A stretch of 64,000 nucleotides of DNA from assembly GCA_965262915.1 (NCBI GenBank), contig OZ253564.1, positions 1,728,001 to 1,792,000 on the forward strand. Reading direction: 5' to 3'. Source of the stretch: Candidatus Spongiisociaceae bacterium. Its GTDB lineage: Bacteria > Actinomycetota > Acidimicrobiia > Spongiisociales > Spongiisociaceae. The notes below the pieces were generated by a model. The model did not search any database, was not told the origin of the DNA, and saw nothing but the letters and a program-made list of their open reading frames with translations. A program made the position numbers and the translations under genes. This document shows, one piece after another, positions 29,157 to 56,965 of the stretch. Numbering within the stretch: position 1 is the stretch's first letter; the number at the start of each line of letters is the position of its first letter.

Positions 29157-30191
29157 ATGCGTGAGGACGGCCTAATGGTGGCCCACTCGACCGGTGAGGA
29201 CCAGATGAGCGAGGCCATGCTGCGTCCCGGCTCTCTGGGGGAGTTCGTGGGCCAGCCCAAGATGAAGGAGCGGCTGGCCATCTCCATGGAGGCCTCGGAG
29301 ATGCTGGGCCGTCCCCTCGACCACCTGCTGCTCTCGGGACCGCCCGGGCTCGGCAAGACCACCCTGGCCCGGATCATCGCCGCCGAGATGGGGGCACAGT
29401 TACGTTCGACTTCGGGTCCGGCCGTGGAGCGGCCCGGTGATCTGGCGGCCATCCTGTCGGGTCTGGAGTACGGTGACGTGCTCTTCATCGACGAGATCCA
29501 CCGGCTGCCGAGGGTGGTGGAGGAGGTGCTGTACTCGGCGATGGAGGACTTCGCCCTCGACATCGTGGTGGGCAAGGGTCCCACCGCCCAGTCGCTGCGC
29601 CTGGGTCTGCCCCGCTTCACGCTGGTGGGAGCCACCACCCGGATCGGTACCGTAACCGCCCCCTTGCGGGACCGTTTCGGCATGGTCGATAGGCTCGACT
29701 ACTACGACGCCGACGACCTGGAGCGGATCGTGGTGCGGTCGGCTTCGATCATCGGGGTTCCGCTGACTGCGGGCGGTGCCCGGCGGATCGCCACCCGCAG
29801 CCGGGGTACGCCGCGGATCGCCAACCGGCTGCTGACCAGGGTGACCGAGTACGCGATCGCTCGGGCGGACGGTCGGGTGGATTCCGCCACGGCTATGGCC
29901 GGGTTGGCTATCTGGGAGGTGGACGACCTGGGTCTCGACAAGGTGGACCGTTTCATCCTGGATGCGATCGTCTCTAAGTTCGGTGGTGGTCCGGTCGGTC
30001 TCACCACTCTGGCTATCGCGGTGGGGGAGGAACCCGAGACGATCGAGGCCGCCTACGAGCCTTTCCTCGTGCAGCAGGGTCTGGTGATGCGCACTCCCCG
30101 GGGGCGTATGGCCACCTCCCGCACCTACCAGCATCTGGGACTCCCCGAACCGCAGTCCGCCCAGGGGTCTCTGCTGCACCGAAGCCACTAA
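29157..30191 (+). CDS. ruvB: Holliday junction helicase
   Basis: LRPGSL.EFVGQ, GPPGLGKTT, FIDEIHRL, SRGTPR, RTPRGR. Confidence 0.97.
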   Translation: MREDGLMVAHSTGEDQMSEAMLRPGSLGEFVGQPKMKERLAISMEASEMLGRPLDHLLLSGPPGLGKTTLARIIAAEMGAQLRSTSGPAVERPGDLAAILSGLEYGDVLFIDEIHRLPRVVEEVLYSAMEDFALDIVVGKGPTAQSLRLGLPRFTLVGATTRIGTVTAPLRDRFGMVDRLDYYDADDLERIVVRSASIIGVPLTAGGARRIATRSRGTPRIANRLLTRVTEYAIARADGRVDSATAMAGLAIWEVDDLGLDKVDRFILDAIVSKFGGGPVGLTTLAIAVGEEPETIEAAYEPFLVQQGLVMRTPRGRMATSRTYQHLGLPEPQSAQGSLLHRSH

Positions 30192-31300
30192 CTTCCCATA
30201 CTAGGTGGGGACGGTTCTGTCCCCGCAAACGCGACCGCACGGGTGGTAGCCGCCGTTGTGTGTGACTCGCCGGTGGCCCTGGTGCCGGCGGTTTCCTTTG
30301 GAGACACTTCGGGGACCAGCACCAGACTGTTCCTATATAGTGAAACTCCGACGGACCCTGCAAGCTTTTCAAGCTAATCATGCACGAGGCTGGCCATGTA
30401 TTCTGGCTTGGTCATCCGAAGTCGGCGTACTCCGGTCAAGCAGTAATGTTACCAGGGCATGCAGATGCTCCTTGTGCCCTGACGGAGTATGATGTGGTAG
30501 CTATCAAGGCTATCTACCAGTCCCGATGATCGTAAGGGCTCAGACGGTAGGAGTGGATGTGACCTCTGTGAGTAGACGAATAACCTGTCTGATAATGATG
30601 GCTATAGCCGGTTCTGTGATCTTGTACTACGACTGGGGTAGAAGAACAGGTGGAAGAATCCGTTTCGGACGGATCACCCGTTGCATACCTAGACACGACG
30701 ATTCCGCCATGTACTCCCGTAGATGGATCGGCGGAGGATCCAGCCCAACCTCGGAGGATAGCTCTCCTAGAGGCTGGTGATGCCACACCAGTTCACTTGG
30801 GCGATGAACTCCCGAACATTACGGAGATGCTACTCGGCACTAATCTACCAGGAATCGCAGTTCCACACGTTGTGGTGAGGGGAACGGCCCTTCCAAATAC
30901 CATACGATACGAACCTCTACAAACTGATAGCGGCGAGCTACAGTCCGATAGGGTCGCGTCACAACGACGCTGCTCACTATAGTTGTTTCGTTGACTTCGC
31001 GATCAACGAATACCTCATCGGAACAGGACCCCCGGAACTGACAGTCGCTATGGATTGGGAGGTCATAGCTCCTATTGATCTGGAGTATTGGCCGGAGAAA
31101 CGAGACTTGTGGATCGGATCCTTAAACGATCCCCGCGCCCGCACCACAGCAGCATATGAAGGAAGAGAAATGATCCTGTTCCTCAAGCCCGCACCTTACT
31201 ATCGCTGTCGAAGTGTGGACTTCATGGGGGTTGTTCACGAAGTGGTTCGTGCAGCGGGACGACGGCGACGATATCAGGCTCATCGATGCTCCTATGGTTG

Positions 31301-32530
31301 TCAAATCGATGATGGGGCGGTTTGGTGGGTGTGCAGCCAGTTCTGGTATCGGGTGGCGAGGTGGTGGTTGTGGTCTCGGCCGTGTTCGAGTGCTGAGATG
31401 CGATTGGGGTGGGTTCCGACGGCTTGGGCGGTCTGGGTGAGGGTGATGCCGCGTTGTTGGCGTCGGGTGCGTAGGCGGGCGCAGTTCGGGGTTGGGTGCG
31501 GGTTGGTGAGGAGCCGGTAGATTTCTCGGGCGATGTGCCGCTTGAGGCAGCGGATGATCTCCTTTTTCTTCTTGCCCTCGGCCTTGCGTCGTGCCACGTA
31601 GGCTTTGGTGGCGGCGTCGGTGCGCATCCGGGTGGTAGCGATCCGCCATAGCGCGTTGTTGGCTTGGCGGTTGCCGCCCCGGTTGAGACGATGCCGAAGG
31701 GTTCGTCCTGATGACGCCTGGACGGGGCTGGCGCCGCACAGCGCCGCGAAAGACCGTTCCGATTTCATTCGCTTGGGGTTGTCGCCGGCGGCGACCAACA
31801 ACGCGGCGGCTGTGTCAGGACCGACACCTTCTGTGGCCAGCAGGGCCGGGTTGGCCTGGGCGCAGAGACGCCGGATCTCGGCTTCGAGTTGGGCGATCTC
31901 TACGTCGAGAGCCTGATACCGGCGGGCCAAATGCTGTAGGGCACGCTTCGCATACGCGGTGGTGGTGTGGTCTGTGCCGGGTCGGAACCGGGCACAGGTT
32001 TTGACCCGTGCTTTGAGATTCATGCCCTTTAGCTGGTGTTTTAGCGGCTCGGGAGCTGTTACGACCAGCGCATGTATCTGGTTAGCGGCCTGGGTGCGGG
32101 CCTTGACCGCGGAGCGGCGCACCACCCACAGCATCCGTATGCACTCGACCGGGCCCACACCGGACTTGGGAACCGCGGTTGCTTCGCCCGAGGCAGCTGC
32201 CCGAGCTGCCGCCTCGGCGTCGACGCTGTCGGTCTTGCCGCCCTTCTGGCGGCGTAGTTGGCGGTTGGGGCGGTTGACCTCCACCACCTCGATGTTCATC
32301 TCGGTCAGGTAACGGGCCAGGCCGGCGCCGTAACTACCCGTTCCTTCCACCCCAACCCGAACCAACTGTCCCCGCGACTCGAACCAGGTGACCATTCGCC
32401 GATAACCGGATTCCTCCACCGCGAAAGACTCCGATCCCAGTACCCGCCCGACGCCATCCACCACCGCTGCTACGTGGACGTCCCGATGGGTGTCAACCCC
32501 ACCGTAGATAATCTGGTCTGCTTCTCCCAT
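31301..32530 (-). CDS. IS110 DEDD recombinase with C-terminal XRE-like HTH (paralog of 2638..3870)
   Basis: GGVDTH, VEGTGSYG, KTDSVDA, SPVQASSG; LRTRRQQRGITLTQTAQAVGTHPNRISALEHG. Confidence 0.94.
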   Translation of the reverse strand: MGEADQIIYGGVDTHRDVHVAAVVDGVGRVLGSESFAVEESGYRRMVTWFESRGQLVRVGVEGTGSYGAGLARYLTEMNIEVVEVNRPNRQLRRQKGGKTDSVDAEAAARAAASGEATAVPKSGVGPVECIRMLWVVRRSAVKARTQAANQIHALVVTAPEPLKHQLKGMNLKARVKTCARFRPGTDHTTTAYAKRALQHLARRYQALDVEIAQLEAEIRRLCAQANPALLATEGVGPDTAAALLVAAGDNPKRMKSERSFAALCGASPVQASSGRTLRHRLNRGGNRQANNALWRIATTRMRTDAATKAYVARRKAEGKKKKEIIRCLKRHIAREIYRLLTNPHPTPNCARLRTRRQQRGITLTQTAQAVGTHPNRISALEHGRDHNHHLATRYQNWLHTHQTAPSSI

Positions 32531-32544
32531 GATGCTCTTCTCCT

Positions 32545-32745
32545 CTAGGGGATAGACTCATTTCCGATCCCCGGACCCGTGTGCGGTTGGACAGGCCACT
32601 CACGGTGGAGAAGTTGAAGGCTCCTATTAGGTCACATCCGCCCCGGGTCACGGGCGTCACGCCCCAGGCCGGGAACGGGCCGACAGATCGATGAAAAGGC
32701 ACAAGGCCAGATTTCAGTTGGGTCAGACCCGCCCTAGCCCAGGAA
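32545..32745 (-). ncRNA. Putative bridge RNA of IS110 copy B (ends approximate)
   Basis: Minus strand carries ACTGAAATC (32710-32718) and TCATCG (32689-32694), matching the ISL3 IR target, plus donor guides ATAGGAGC (32620-32627) and TGAGTG (32597-32602). Scaffold is conserved with copy A. Confidence 0.8.
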
Positions 32746-32766
32746 CCCTCCAATTATGAGTGGATT

Positions 32767-34046
32767 TCAGTGGGGAGTGACCGATGGGAGTAGGTCCCAG
32801 TTGGGTTTCCCCGCGTAGAGAAGGGCGCGGATTCGGTAGTTCGCGAAGTTGGGTAACCCGAACGCTGCTCGTTTGATCCGTTTGATGAGGTTGTTGAGGG
32901 CTTCGGTGGGTCTGTTGGTTACCTTCGAGATGTGCCAGTTGGTGATCTGGGGGGTCCAGCGGGCGATGGTACGTCCCAGCTTGTTGATCTCGGGTGGGCA
33001 GGATTCGTCCTGGAGGTCGTCTGCGAGCCCGAGGGTGTATCGGAGAGCAAGGACCGGACTTTCGATCCCGTAGATGCCCCGTACCGTTTCGGTTGCGTGC
33101 CAGGCGGTGCGTACCTCCCCGTGGGGGTCACCGGCATCCAAAAGACCACGCAGCCGGGTTTGACCGCGGTCGCTGATCCTCTCATGCGCAGCGGTGAGGA
33201 GGCGGCGTATCCGATACAGCGGGTCATCCTTGCGGCCTCGATGCCCGAGGGTTTCGTTCTGGGTGCGGCGTCGTACTTCGTCGAGTCGCTGGTTGGCCAA
33301 GCGGATGACGTGGAAGGGGTCTGCTACCTGCACAGCGTTCGGGAGCACCCGGTTATACGCCTTCCGATACGAACCGGACATGACCCGACACCGCCCAGCG
33401 GATAGCCTCACACCATTCGGTGGGCTGCGCCCGGAACCAGGCTGCGGCGCTTTCTGCCGTTCTACCACCGACTATGTCGAACCGGCTGGTGGCCTCCCAC
33501 GTCGACGACAGAGGTGCACCAGACTTTGGTACGCCAACGGCCCCGACGCCAGAACAACGTCTCGTCCACTCCCACAGCTTCGACGGTCCCGACCCGATCG
33601 GTGTCTGCTTCCAGCAGCGCTTCGCCCCAGCGGACGACCTCATTGTTCACCGTATGCCAATCACAACCCAACTCTGCGGCGACCTCGTCGACCGAACGGC
33701 CCCGCCCACCCACCCCGATGGTCACCCACCGGGCCGCTCTCGATGTCAACAACGCCCGTTGGGGACCAATCGTGGGGTCTTGTTCGATGAACGATCTGAT
33801 CTCACAGTCGGGGTTCGGGCACGTCCAGCGGCGTTTCCGCCACCGCAGCCGAACCGGACGGCCGAACGCCGGTAGATCCACCAACACAACCGTTCTGTGA
33901 CCCTTGGACCACACCGGGCCGCCACAGGACTCACACAACGGGCGGGGCTTGCGGGACCCGATCACCACCCCAAGCGGTGCACCCTCGCCCGAGTCGTTGA
34001 TCCCTACCAGATCAACGTCGCCCAGGCCTACCAACAACTCGCACAT
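32767..34046 (-). pseudogene. ISL3 transposase, frameshifted
   Basis: CESCG..DLP.FG.PV.L.W.KRRW.C zinc finger, VGVDET, VADPFHVIRLAN, TN..TEALNN.IK.IKR.AFG..NF.NYR.R.LL, spread over three frames. Confidence 0.9.
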
Positions 34047-35339
34047 GCGCGCAGGGATCAGCTTCCACAGGGGTCCTCCTGCCTCGGATGTCTTTTCTCA
34101 GCACCCGATTATGGAGGACCCCCCATCACTTCTGGTGGATTACCACTCCCCCTGGCAGATCCCCGACTCCCCACTCATTTCCGAAGAGCCCGATATCAGA
34201 GCCGTCGCAGAGGAGATCTCCTTGGCGGAGACCGACGCGCAGCGGAACAGTCTGGACGTTCCGCTGGCCACGCTGCTGTCCCAGATCCGAACGGCTGCCG
34301 CAACCAGAACAGCACGTGTAGCCACATCCGACCCCGGACCCGACCCCGGCGCGGCTGCCAGGTCGGCGTCAGACGAATCGTCGACCTCTATGACCACCGT
34401 AGCGGGAATTCTGAGACCGGAGGGTGGTCTAGGTAGCGAGAAACCCGTAGCGGTGTTGATCACCGACGCCAACCGGCTGAGAGATGCCTATGTGGAGTTC
34501 GGAGGGACCTATGAGGGTGAGGACGCTACGACGGTGTTGCCGCCGCCTCCGCCGGAGCCGCCTGGTGTGCCTACCAATGTTGGGATGTCGGTTGAGGATG
34601 GTGTGGTTCTTGTTACCTGGGATGAGCTGGAGTCGGGTGGGGATGTGGAGGAGTATCGTGTCTGGTTCTTGTCCGAGCTCGCGGATGGGGGCCACGAAGT
34701 CGTTCTACAACGTCGCGTCGTATCTGGGTGAGCGGTTCTTCGAGATCACCTATATGGTGGGGTTGTTCGGTGACGAGTTCTCGGTGCAGGTGCGGGCGGG
34801 TAATCGTGTGGGGTTTTCGCCGTGGACCGAGAAACGTTTCTTTACCACACCGTCGTCATCGTCGGCGTGATGCCTGCTCTCGGTGATCTGTCTGTGGTTT
34901 GATTGCAACCGGCCGCGGTGTGGTGACCTGTGGTCGTGGTCGTAGGGGTGGGACCGGGGTGGGCCGGGGTTTCAGCGGTGCGGGCTTTCCGATCGAGTGG
35001 GTGTAGGTAGGTGGGATCTCCCTTGTTGAGGTGGGCCGGCGCGAACCCGTTCCCGTCGCCGGGTCAAGATCCCGAGACTGTCTGTGTCACAAACATAGAC
35101 AGGCCCGACTATTGCCCGGCCCGTCGGGCCAAGGTTGCTCACCTTGACGTGGTTCTGCAGAGGAGAATACCGCTTCGCGCTCCGGCCGACAACTAGCGTG
35201 ATCGGGTCGATGTCCAAAGGAACGAGTAGGCGCGTACATCGATGGATTCAACCTGTACTACGGTCTTGGAGATGGCGGGCTACGCTCGTCCCGGCGGCCG
35301 GATGGTGTCCTTCTCTCCGCAGACGCGCTACCGGGATAA

Positions 35340-37567
<2,228 letters not shown>

Positions 37568-56692: not shown

Positions 56693-56783
56693 TTGCCGGT
56701 TGTCGGCGATTGTCGGTTGTCGGTTGAAGGCGGTTGCCGGTCTGTTTACTATTAGATACTATCTATGAACTTGTAGTATATTG

Positions 56784-56965
56784 TGATGATTGATGATTGA
56801 TGATTGATGATTGATGATTGATGATTGATGATTGATGATTGATGATTGATGATTGATGATTGATGATTGATGATTGATGATTGATGATTGATGATTGATG
56901 ATTGATGATTGGCAACTGGCAACTGGCAACTGGCAACTGGCAACTGGCAGCTGGCAACTGGTCAC
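56784..56965. repeat. Compound heptamer tandem repeat
   Basis: (TGATGAT)18 at 56784-56909, followed by about 8 TGGCAAC-like units at 56910-56965. Confidence 0.95.

What the first reader, a model, noticed from the sequence alone, without database searches (positions are those of the whole stretch)
31269..34198. IS110 copy B is guided into the terminal inverted repeat of an ISL3
Seen: copy B sits 8-9 bp inside the 25-bp ISL3 IR. Removing it restores the IR and leaves the 8-bp TSD CGATATCA intact, and its guides spell the IR sequence. The order of events can be read: FN3 gene, then ISL3, then IS110. Known: some IS1111-group elements target transposon IRs or attC sites. Inference: targeting a multicopy IS end gives harmless landing sites and probably immobilises the ISL3.
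Basis: partly seen in the sequence, partly recalled or inferred. Interest (0 to 1): 0.8.

Follow-up and report, generated by a model that had tools for sequence, protein, structure and literature searches.

The report
Guided IS110 inside an ISL3 end
A small RNA-guided jumping gene (IS110 family) has landed at one exact spot inside the end-repeat of a different jumping gene (ISL3), and its guide sequences match that spot; the behaviour is already known for related elements, so this is a clear new example and not a new principle.

Summary
Window 31285-32761 (minus strand, 1477 bp) is an IS110-type element. It lies 8-9 bp inside the tnp-distal inverted repeat (IRR) of a 1437-bp ISL3 element, which is flanked by the 8-bp duplication CGATATCA.

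- **Guides.** The 5' non-coding region has the bridge-RNA layout. A 9-nt left target guide (32710-32718) equals the left half-site, and a 7-nt right target guide (32688-32694) is complementary to the right half-site. Across 14 guide classes in this genome and its relatives, 182 of 196 guide positions match their own flanks (permuted mean 94.8; 0 of 20000 permutations reach 182).
- **Census.** 16 of 17 copies with this guide pair in the genome sit at the identical IRR position, as do 2 of 2 in a second genome. 16 of 46 IRRs are occupied, against 0 of 43 ends at the other side (IRL).
- **Order of events.** Three public runs carry the locus without ISL3, so the host locus came first.
- **Not confirmed.** The "FN3" label got no Pfam support. 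Immobilisation of the ISL3 is plausible but untested. The eye-catching 12-nt match at 32556-32567 is to the other repeat and is not a guide.
- **Precedent.** IS1383 targets IS1384 repeats, and IS4321/IS5075 target Tn21 repeats.

Verdict: a new member of a known kind, of moderate interest.

The parts
31269..31276 (.). 8-bp target-site duplication of the ISL3 (CGATATCA), left copy
   Evidence: The same 8 bp recur at 34191-34198. Contigs of runs X1, X2 and X9 join 31268 to 34191, leaving one copy.
31277..31284 (-). Outer 8 bp of the ISL3 IRR (GGCTCATC), cut off from the rest of the repeat by the IS110
   Evidence: empty copies read GGCTCATCGGATTTCAGTGGGGAGT.
31285..32761 (-). IS110-type insertion sequence 'copy B', 1477 bp. 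It has no terminal inverted repeats; LE starts ACTCAT and RE ends GGAGCATC.
   Evidence: nine copies at 99.2% identity or more and eight at about 81% share these ends.
31299..31304 (-). TTGACA (-35-like hexamer) in RE, 14 nt from the element end
   Evidence: Read directly. Spacing to the LE hexamer computed.
31301..32530 (-). IS110 transposase/recombinase gene, 409 aa: DEDD RuvC-like domain, Transposase_20 domain and a C-terminal HTH
   Evidence: Aligns with IS621 transposase 8wt6_A, E 9.5e-12.
32548..32573 (-). Hairpin just upstream of the ribosome-binding site. Its loop (32556-32567) equals 12 nt of the ISL3 IRL. Judged not to be a guide.
   Evidence: most B copies differ by one base in this loop, leaving a 10-nt match, and B' and L001 differ more. 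My calculation gives about 0.1 such 10-nt matches by chance.
32597..32603 (-). Right donor guide (GTGAGTG), complementary to the LE start (CACTCA)
   Evidence: conserved in 15 diverse bridge-RNA regions. RNAalifold pairs it with the first five bases of LE (ACUCA).
32620..32627 (-). Left donor guide (ATAGGAGC), identical to the RE end (ATAGGAGCATC)
32688..32694 (-). Right target guide (TCATCGA), the reverse complement of the core plus right half-site (TC/GATGA)
32710..32718 (-). Left target guide (ACTGAAATC), identical to the left half-site in the ISL3 IRR
32753..32758 (-). CATAAT (-10-like hexamer) in LE, 3 nt from the element start
   Evidence: Spacing of 17 nt to the RE hexamer once the ends are joined. 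No sigma-70-like site in the integrated copy.
32762..34190 (-). Remainder of the ISL3 element: inner IRR, transposase in two frames (32767-33468 and 33462-34046), and IRL at 34166-34190
34191..34198 (.). 8-bp target-site duplication, right copy

Best explanation
**What it is.** Copy B is an IS110-type, bridge-RNA-guided insertion sequence. Its target-binding loop is programmed for a 14-15-bp site in the tnp-distal inverted repeat of a multicopy ISL3 element. In the IS110's orientation that site reads ACTGAAAT-CC-GATGA.

**How it works.**
- The 5' non-coding region (about 32580-32740, minus strand) encodes an RNA with two internal loops.
- The second loop holds guides that match the element's own RE and LE.
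- The DEDD/Ser recombinase then exchanges strands between the joined ends of an excised circle and the ISL3 repeat. This places the element in one orientation, directly downstream of and co-directional with the ISL3 transposase gene.

**Shown here:** the nested anatomy, guide-flank identity, covariation across guide classes, the census, and the existence of the empty host locus.

**Inferred:**
- RNA expression, circle formation and the junction promoter.
- That the split repeat disables the ISL3.
- That multicopy IS ends serve as harmless landing sites.
For: **Anatomy and duplication:**

**Protein:** PF01548 and PF02371. Alignment to IS621 transposase keeps the GxDT, EATG/EGTG, KTDxxDA and SG motifs.

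**Layout:** the non-coding region is 231 nt upstream and 16 nt downstream of tnp, which is the IS110-type arrangement described in PMC11187229 (passages).

**Guide rule:** the left target guide equals the left flank and the reverse complement of the right target guide equals TC plus 5 nt of the right flank. This is the strand rule stated in PMC11208160 (passages).

**Covariation:** 14 guide classes, 182 of 196 positions matching, permuted mean 94.8 (sd 10.7), 0 of 20000 permutations reaching the observed value.

**Donor loop:** conserved while the target loop varies.

**Census.**
- 17 copies with this loop in G000, 16 of them at the identical IRR position.
- 2 of 2 at that position in G061.
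- None with this loop in the other 200 genomes of the order searched.

**End specificity:** 16 of 46 IRRs occupied against 0 of 43 IRLs. By my comparison of the two repeats, the IRL differs from the left target guide at 4 of 9 positions.

**Variant repeats:** IRRs changed next to the core (8 GCG, 1 with a 1-nt deletion) are occupied in 0 of 9 cases, against 16 of 37 for the standard form (one-sided Fisher p 0.013; the copies are related, so this is overstated).

**The one exception:** its site fits another class's guides at 12 of 14 positions and its own at 6 of 14.

**Empty host locus:** present in three runs.
Against: - No RNA or activity data. The two RNA runs offered held little of the stretch; the one I laid (X19) covered only part of the ISL3.
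- Rfam gave no bridge-RNA hit for 31200-34300; the only match was radC at E 0.28.
- The single-sequence fold of the 5' region is no better than shuffles (z -1.26).
- On the ISL3 site the two guide footprints overlap by 1 nt, not the 2 nt seen in other classes here. The exact cleavage register is therefore unresolved.
- 5 of the 16 occupied sites carry one mismatch to the right target guide (GAAGAG in place of GATGAG), so pairing there is not strict.
- Immobilisation: occupied copies more often have a broken ISL3 transposase (10 of 13 against 8 of 23, p 0.018). The effect is lost when the 11 identical copies are collapsed (10 of 12 against 8 of 14, p 0.16), and copy age is a confounder.
Confidence: 0.9

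Rival explanations
1. ISL3 and IS110 form one composite element that moves as a unit on the ISL3 ends. The occupied copies would then be descendants of a single nested insertion, not of repeated guided insertions.
For: - 10 of 16 occupied copies have a perfect 8-bp duplication around the whole composite. Unit transposition would also give this.
- Three pairs of occupied ISL3 bodies are sisters in the tree.
- The window's ISL3 copy is 5.6% from its nearest copy, yet it is absent from three runs with identical flanks. It therefore arrived already diverged.
Against: - IS110 copies that are 99.2-99.9% identical sit in ISL3 bodies that are 85-94% identical to the window's.
- No two occupied ISL3 bodies are identical.
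- The group of 11 identical ISL3 bodies is 10 empty and 1 occupied.
- The outer 8 bp of the repeat lie 1.5 kb from the rest, which should prevent end recognition (inference).
Confidence: 0.05
2. The transposase protein alone recognises the ISL3 repeat, and the matches in the 5' region are incidental.
For: The protein has an extra C-terminal HTH domain that could bind DNA. No RNA data are available.
Against: Guide and flank change together in 14 classes whose proteins are related. Classes B and B' are about 81% identical over the element yet keep identical guides and the same target.
Confidence: 0.03
3. The IS110 spread among ISL3 copies by homologous recombination or gene conversion between ISL3 copies, not by its own transposition.
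For: ISL3 copies offer 1.4 kb of homology on one side. Some loci are clearly recombined or nested: the duplications differ at 662031 and 1145774.
Against: On the other side only 8 bp of ISL3 remain before unique flanking DNA, so two-sided conversion has no substrate. The B copies are far more alike than the ISL3 bodies next to them.
Confidence: 0.02

Closest known systems
IS1383 (IS110 family), which integrates into the inverted repeats of IS1384 in Pseudomonas putida H (Müller, Lauf & Herrmann 2001). I saw only the title, in the reference list of PMC11208160. The family labels come from a table in PMC5141477.
   Same: An IS110-family element whose specific target is the inverted repeat of another insertion sequence.
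   Different: - The target there is labelled IS5 family, not ISL3.
- The host is a proteobacterium, not a relative of the Acidimicrobiia MAGs that carry the closest copies.
- I could not read the paper, so position, orientation and occupancy cannot be compared.
[quoted passage not shown]
   Same: Site- and orientation-specific insertion inside a transposon's terminal repeat.
   Different: - Those are IS1111-type elements: non-coding region downstream of tnp, with subterminal inverted repeats.
- Copy B is IS110-type: non-coding region upstream, no inverted repeats.
- The target there is a Tn3-family transposon, not an IS.
IS621 and its bridge RNA (PMC11208160, passages; PDB 8wt6).
   Same: - Two-loop guide RNA upstream of a DEDD/Ser recombinase.
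- A 9-nt left target guide read in the same strand sense.
- Donor guides that match the element ends.
- A multicopy natural target.
   Different: - IS621 targets REP elements with a CT core and a 4-nt right target guide.
- Here the target is an IS end, the core looks like NC, and the right target guide is 5 nt plus core.
- The protein is 409 aa with an added HTH, and similarity to IS621 is low (E 9.5e-12).
ISPpu9 and ISPa11, which target REP sequences (abstract start of PMC12288879 in the listing; passages of PMC11187229).
   Same: Family members that use a repeated, presumably harmless genomic sequence as a landing site.
   Different: Their target is a host repeat, not another mobile element.

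Membership tests
IS110 family, IS110 type (bridge/seek-RNA-guided DEDD recombinase elements) | N-terminal DEDD (RuvC-like) domain | tested here: met
   PF01548, E 1.2e-23, residues 11-156. D in GVDT, E in VEGTG and D..D in KTDSVDA align with IS621. Which residues are catalytic is recalled, not taken from a call.
IS110 family, IS110 type (bridge/seek-RNA-guided DEDD recombinase elements) | C-terminal Transposase_20 domain with the conserved Ser-Gly | tested here: met
   PF02371, E 1.7e-19. QASSGR aligns with YESGSS of IS621.
IS110 family, IS110 type (bridge/seek-RNA-guided DEDD recombinase elements) | Long non-coding region upstream of tnp (in the IS1111 type it is downstream), with no subterminal inverted repeats | tested here: met
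   231 nt upstream and 16 nt downstream of the ORF. By eye, the ends ACTCAT... and ...GGAGCATC are not inverted repeats. The criterion comes from PMC11187229 passages.
IS110 family, IS110 type (bridge/seek-RNA-guided DEDD recombinase elements) | Target-binding loop whose two guides covary with the flanks | tested here: met
   14 classes, 182 of 196 matches, 0 of 20000 permutations.
IS110 family, IS110 type (bridge/seek-RNA-guided DEDD recombinase elements) | Donor-binding loop that matches the element's own ends | tested here: met
   ATAGGAGC equals the RE end, and GTGAGTG is complementary to the LE start. Both are conserved in 15 diverse sequences.
IS110 family, IS110 type (bridge/seek-RNA-guided DEDD recombinase elements) | No target-site duplication beyond a shared 1-2-nt core | tested here: met
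   Only one base is shared at the two junctions.
IS110 family, IS110 type (bridge/seek-RNA-guided DEDD recombinase elements) | Match to a curated RNA family or a stable conserved fold | tested here: inconclusive
   No bridge-RNA hit in Rfam 15. The single-sequence fold has z -1.26. RNAalifold recovers the stem that closes the target loop but little else.
IS110 family, IS110 type (bridge/seek-RNA-guided DEDD recombinase elements) | RNA made, circle formed, recombination catalysed | not testable with these tools
   The RNA run laid, X19, covered only 33832-34124 in the ISL3.
ISL3 family (the target element) | DDE_Tnp_ISL3 transposase with N-terminal zinc ribbon and HTH | tested here: met
   PF01610, E 3.4e-39; PF14690, E 5.6e-07. 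PF13542 is below its cut-off. The frame is split in this copy.
ISL3 family (the target element) | Terminal inverted repeats of about 25 bp and an 8-bp duplication | tested here: met
   21 of 25 positions agree between the two repeats. 29 of the 36 copies with both ends found have identical 8-bp duplications. That 8 bp is typical of the family is recalled.
IS110/IS1111 elements that target the terminal repeat of another transposable element | All or nearly all copies at one position and in one orientation in that repeat | tested here: met
   16 of 17 in G000 and 2 of 2 in G061, all in the same orientation.

The most novel reading that the evidence does not exclude
In this bacterial family the IS110 elements may form a guild of hyperparasites that live on other insertion sequences and interact with them as predator and prey.

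**Retargeting to IS ends.**
- At least three guide classes are aimed at different positions in the ends of two ISL3 families: B/B' at position 8-9 of one IRR, and F and D at positions 16 and 38 of the tnp-proximal end of a second ISL3.
- Two further classes are aimed at IS110 elements themselves: class A at a tnp 3' region, and class E at the RE.

**Signs of interaction.**
- ISL3 repeat variants changed next to the core are unoccupied, which could be escape.
- An ISL3 has in turn inserted into a B copy.
- One B' copy seems to have been placed by another class's bridge RNA acting in trans.
- A scar in a relative looks like recombination on the DNA that encodes the element's own guide.

**If true,** guided IS110 elements would act as natural, reversible silencers of ISL3 expansion. 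Guide exchange and trans-use would be the routes by which new targets are acquired.
Probability: 0.3. Interest if true: 0.6.

Novelty: new member of a known kind. Interest (0 to 1): 0.4.

Why it matters
- It is a clean natural example of bridge-RNA programming. One genome holds many sister elements with the same donor loop and different target loops, and each sits in the site its loop spells. That makes a ready-made covariation set for defining guide length, core rules and mismatch tolerance in a lineage far from IS621.
- IS ends are recurrent targets for this lineage. This bears on how insertion sequences limit or exploit each other in IS-rich symbiont genomes.
- It does not change what is known about the mechanism. 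IS110/IS1111 elements that target the terminal repeats of other transposable elements were described in 2001-2003, and the guide RNA in 2024.

Tried and rejected
- **Rfam scan of 31200-34300.** Only a weak radC match (E 0.28) inside the tnp ORF, which I discarded as chance. No bridge-RNA family matched.
- **Single-sequence fold of the 5' region.** Not distinguishable from shuffles, so I did not use it.
- **The 12-nt match between 32556-32567 and the ISL3 IRL.** I considered it as a guide or a mimic and rejected it. It lies outside both loops. Most B copies match over only 10 nt, and B' and L001 differ further. By my estimate about 0.1 such 10-nt matches are expected by chance.
- **'FN3 gene'.** Pfam on five flanking frames gave no FN3 hit at E <= 0.01, only ruvB and queA further out. 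I saw FN3-like and HExxH-like pieces in different frames and did not pursue them.
- **Pfam on the flanks of the one exceptional B' copy.** No family found, so my first idea that it sits in another IS110 tnp gene is not shown. Only the fit to class A guides stands.
- **RNA evidence.** Runs X17-X20 held 7-15% of the sampled words. X19, once laid, covered only 33832-34124 in the ISL3. Nothing can be said about expression of the guide RNA.
- **Search for the ISL3-present, IS110-absent allele at this locus.** No such joint was listed. Contigs with only 8 nt on one side would not be reported, so this says nothing.
- **Broken ISL3 transposase in occupied copies as support for immobilisation.** The effect is lost when identical copies are collapsed.
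- **Literature.**
  - (terms IS110, ISL3, inverted repeat, bridge RNA): 56 papers held at least 3 of the 4 terms and 20 were listed. None of the listed titles or abstract starts describes an IS110 element in an ISL3 repeat, and the bridge-RNA papers listed there hold 0 occurrences of 'ISL3'.
  - Searches (IS110, seekRNA; IS1383, IS1384) were the other searches.
  - This is not an exhaustive search.
  - I did not read Müller 2001 or Partridge & Hall 2003; I saw only their titles in reference lists.
- **The search of earlier findings was closed.** I used no earlier findings.

Full report
**Where the window lies.** The window is G000:C1:1728001-1792000 of a 5.06-Mb single-contig genome. The closest records found with the element's protein are two metagenome-assembled genomes, one labelled Acidimicrobiia and one Candidatus Spongiisociaceae.

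**Anatomy.**
- Read on the + strand, the finding consists of:
  - CGATATCA at 31269-31276;
  - GGCTCATC at 31277-31284;
  - a 1477-bp element on the minus strand at 31285-32761;
  - 1429 bp of ISL3 at 32762-34190;
  - CGATATCA again at 34191-34198.
- The minus-strand ORF 31301-32530 (409 aa) has the DEDD_Tnp_IS110 and Transposase_20 domains plus a C-terminal HTH. It aligns with the IS621 transposase of PDB 8wt6, keeping the acidic and Ser-Gly motifs.
- The frames 32767-33468 and 33462-34046 carry the ISL3 DDE domain, zinc ribbon and HTH. The ISL3 transposase is therefore split in this copy.
- Empty ISL3 copies elsewhere in the genome read GGCTCATCGGATTTCAGTGGGGAGT at this end. At the other end they read GGCTCTTCGGAAATGAGTGGGGAGT in reverse complement.
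- The IS110 thus lies 8-9 bp inside a roughly 25-bp imperfect repeat, with one base ambiguous, and removing it restores the repeat.

**Census in this genome.**
- A pattern for the inner part of this repeat finds 53 places. Seven are chance matches and 46 are ISL3 IRR ends.
- Sixteen IRRs are occupied at the identical position and in the same orientation. Thirty are empty.
- Ten of the 16 occupied copies, the window's included, have the same 8 bp on both sides of the whole composite. One matches at 6 of 8 positions, two are nested or recombined loci, and three lack the other end.
- At the other repeat (IRL), 43 ends are uninterrupted and none carries an IS110.
- BLAST finds nine IS110 copies at 99.2% identity or more to copy B, and eight of a sister type (B') at about 81%.
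- All 17 carry the same target loop. Sixteen are in the IRR and one B' copy is not.

**The guides.**
- In the element's own orientation the left flank ends ACTGAAATC-C and the right flank starts GATGAGCC.
- Downstream of a conserved GGGTCTGAC, the 5' region holds ACTGAAATC (window 32710-32718). After a short hairpin it holds TCATCGA (32688-32694).
- This is the arrangement described for IS621 in passages of PMC11208160. [quoted passage not shown] - The genome and its relatives supply a natural test. Sister elements have the same ends and the same second loop, but different sequences at these two positions, and they lie in different flanks.
- Taking one representative for each of 14 guide classes, 182 of 196 guide positions equal the element's own flanks. 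Permuting flanks among classes gives a mean of 94.8 (sd 10.7, maximum 146), and 0 of 20000 permutations reach 182.
- The second loop is conserved across the 15 diverse sequences aligned. It holds ATAGGAGC (32620-32627), which equals the RE end, and GTGAGTG (32597-32603), which is complementary to the LE start.
- I conclude that the 5' region encodes a bridge RNA and that its target loop spells the ISL3 IRR.

**What is not a guide.**
- The most eye-catching match in the element is at 32556-32567. On the minus strand it reads the same as 12 nt of the other ISL3 repeat (IRL). It sits in a hairpin loop next to the ribosome-binding site, outside both loops.
- Most B copies differ by one base there, leaving a 10-nt match. 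B' copies and the copy in the other genome differ more. About 0.1 such 10-nt matches are expected by chance.
- I treat it as coincidence and record it as unexplained.

**Specificity.**
- By my comparison, the IRL differs from the left target guide at 4 of 9 positions, which fits 0 of 43 occupied IRLs.
- Nine IRRs are changed next to the core: eight read GCG in place of GGA, and one lacks a base. None is occupied, against 16 of 37 of the standard form (one-sided Fisher p 0.013). These copies are related by descent, so the test overstates the case.
- Five of the 16 occupied sites have A in place of T at repeat position 6, a mismatch to the right target guide. That position is therefore tolerated.
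- The one B' copy outside an ISL3 lies in a site that fits the guides of class A at 12 of 14 positions and its own at 6 of 14. That is the best fit among 20 guide pairs. A bridge RNA of another element acting in trans on shared donor ends would explain it. This is an inference.

**Other genomes.**
- In the record that holds L001 (G061), two elements have the full B-type target loop and both stand at the ISL3 IRR junction. Two IRRs there are empty, and a third junction-like site has one mismatch.
- Among 201 genomes of the order, only G000 has this loop.
- Empty IRRs of this sequence occur in 15 of the 29 genomes of the family.
- Relatives hold elements with the same left target guide but a different right target guide. 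These sit at CACTGAAATT|CCCCA sites, not in ISL3. Both guides count.
- Two relatives carry remnants of the element in an ISL3 IRR.

**Order of events.**
- Contigs of three public runs from three studies join 31268 to 34191, skipping 2922 bases with no differences in 579 flanking bases. The skipped length equals 1437 + 1477 + 8. The locus therefore exists without ISL3, and the host sequence came first.
- Several facts show that the IS110 copies entered ISL3 copies independently:
  - Their identity to each other is 99.2-99.9%, while the adjacent ISL3 bodies are only 85-94% identical to the window's.
  - The window's ISL3 and its sister differ by 5.6%, yet their IS110s differ by 0.07%.
  - Of the 11 identical ISL3 bodies, 10 are empty and 1 is occupied.
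- Gene conversion is unlikely, because only 8 bp of ISL3 lie on the outer side.
- It is not shown whether this ISL3 copy already carried the IS110 when it arrived. I consider that unlikely, because the repeat is split.

**The host gene.** Pfam finds no FN3 domain in the flanking frames at E <= 0.01. I see an FN3-like stretch divided between two frames at about 34560-34870 and an HExxH motif at 30344-30529 in yet another frame. The locus between ruvB and queA looks like a decayed gene.

**Consequences.**
- The insertion is always co-directional with, and directly downstream of, the ISL3 transposase gene.
- The integrated copy has no sigma-70-like promoter by a simple scan.
- RE has TTGACA 14 nt from its end and LE has CATAAT 3 nt from its start. 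Joined, they would stand 17 nt apart. This fits the junction promoter known for elements that move through circles; I recall that point and did not check it in a paper.
- That the split repeat disables the ISL3 is reasonable but untested. Occupied copies more often have a broken transposase (10 of 13 against 8 of 23), but the difference is not robust once identical copies are collapsed.

**Comparison with what is known.**
- RNA-guided target choice in IS110 and IS1111 elements is established (PMC11208160 and PMC11187229, passages).
- Targeting the terminal repeat of another mobile element is also established:
  - IS4321 and IS5075 target Tn21-family repeats.
  - IS1383 targets the repeats of IS1384. 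I saw only the titles of those two papers in reference lists. A table in PMC5141477 labels IS1383 as IS110 family and IS1384 as IS5 family.
- My searches found no report of an IS110 element in an ISL3 repeat.
- The finding is therefore a new member of a known kind.

**Side observations that raise its value somewhat.**
- Classes F and D insert 16 and 38 nt inside the tnp-proximal end of a second ISL3 family with 13 copies.
- Class A, which includes the window's copy A, sits just after the Transposase_20 domain of another IS110-family gene.
- Class E fits the RE of sister elements.
- An ISL3 has inserted into a B copy.

Noticed in passing
window 1871-3886: Copy A (LE at 2357, tnp frame 2479-3870, + strand) lies directly after a Transposase_20 domain (PF02371, E 4.9e-23, frame 1871-2356) of a different IS110-family gene. 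Its guides AAAGAACAC and GCGTTGA fit those flanks. Two of the three class A copies in G000 are in this kind of site.
   Followed up: partly
G000:C1 3674250-3677600 (L044 1-1400), and 12 further copies listed: IS110 classes F and D insert 16 nt and 38 nt inside the tnp-proximal end of a second ISL3-family element (PF01610, E 2.2e-45). Three guide classes in one genome therefore aim at ISL3 ends.
   Followed up: partly
G000:C1 3663632-3665111 (L045, L055): This is the only B-type copy outside an ISL3 repeat. Its flanks fit the class A guides at 12 of 14 positions and its own at 6 of 14, which suggests placement by another element's bridge RNA in trans.
   Followed up: partly
L005 about 1502-1590 (G007:C23), and L012 about 192-250 on the reverse strand (G027:C104): Both are remnants in ISL3 IRRs. 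In L005 the LE and the bridge-RNA gene run up to the left target guide and are then fused straight to the outer 8 bp of the repeat, as if recombination had used the DNA that encodes the guide. In L012 only about 20 nt of LE remain.
   Followed up: no
G000:C1 about 4427099, and L020 about 1508 on the reverse strand: A guide class with left target guide TTGACAAAC has a left flank (in L020) that is the conserved RE sequence of sister IS110 elements. It is an IS110 aimed at the end of other IS110s.
   Followed up: no
G000:C1 4176837-4178261: An ISL3 from the group of 11 identical copies is inserted into the 3' end of a B copy (duplication ACCAAACC). That B copy itself sits in an ISL3 IRR, so the nesting is reciprocal.
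   Followed up: no
window 31301-31480 (protein residues 351-386): The transposase has a C-terminal HTH_31/HTH_3 domain, seen in copies A and B alike. It lies beyond the part that aligns with IS621 (328 aa).
   Followed up: no
window 32688-32762, and G000:C1 306080: A register puzzle. On the ISL3 site the left and right target-guide footprints overlap by 1 nt, against 2 nt in classes A, D and F. The single ISL3 copy whose IRR is 1 nt shorter would give the 2-nt overlap, and it is empty.
   Followed up: partly
window 30200-31268 and 34199-35340: The host locus between ruvB (29157-30191) and queA (35340-36386) has an HExxH motif and an FN3-like piece in different frames, and looks like a pseudogene. 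Three public runs carry it without the ISL3.
   Followed up: partly
G021:C1 1562055-1562355: A tandem array of roughly 51-bp units matches the LE-to-target-loop piece of the IS110 5' region.
   Followed up: no
window 56756-56944: Two adjoining 7-nt microsatellites: TGATGAT units followed by TGGCAAC units.
   Followed up: no
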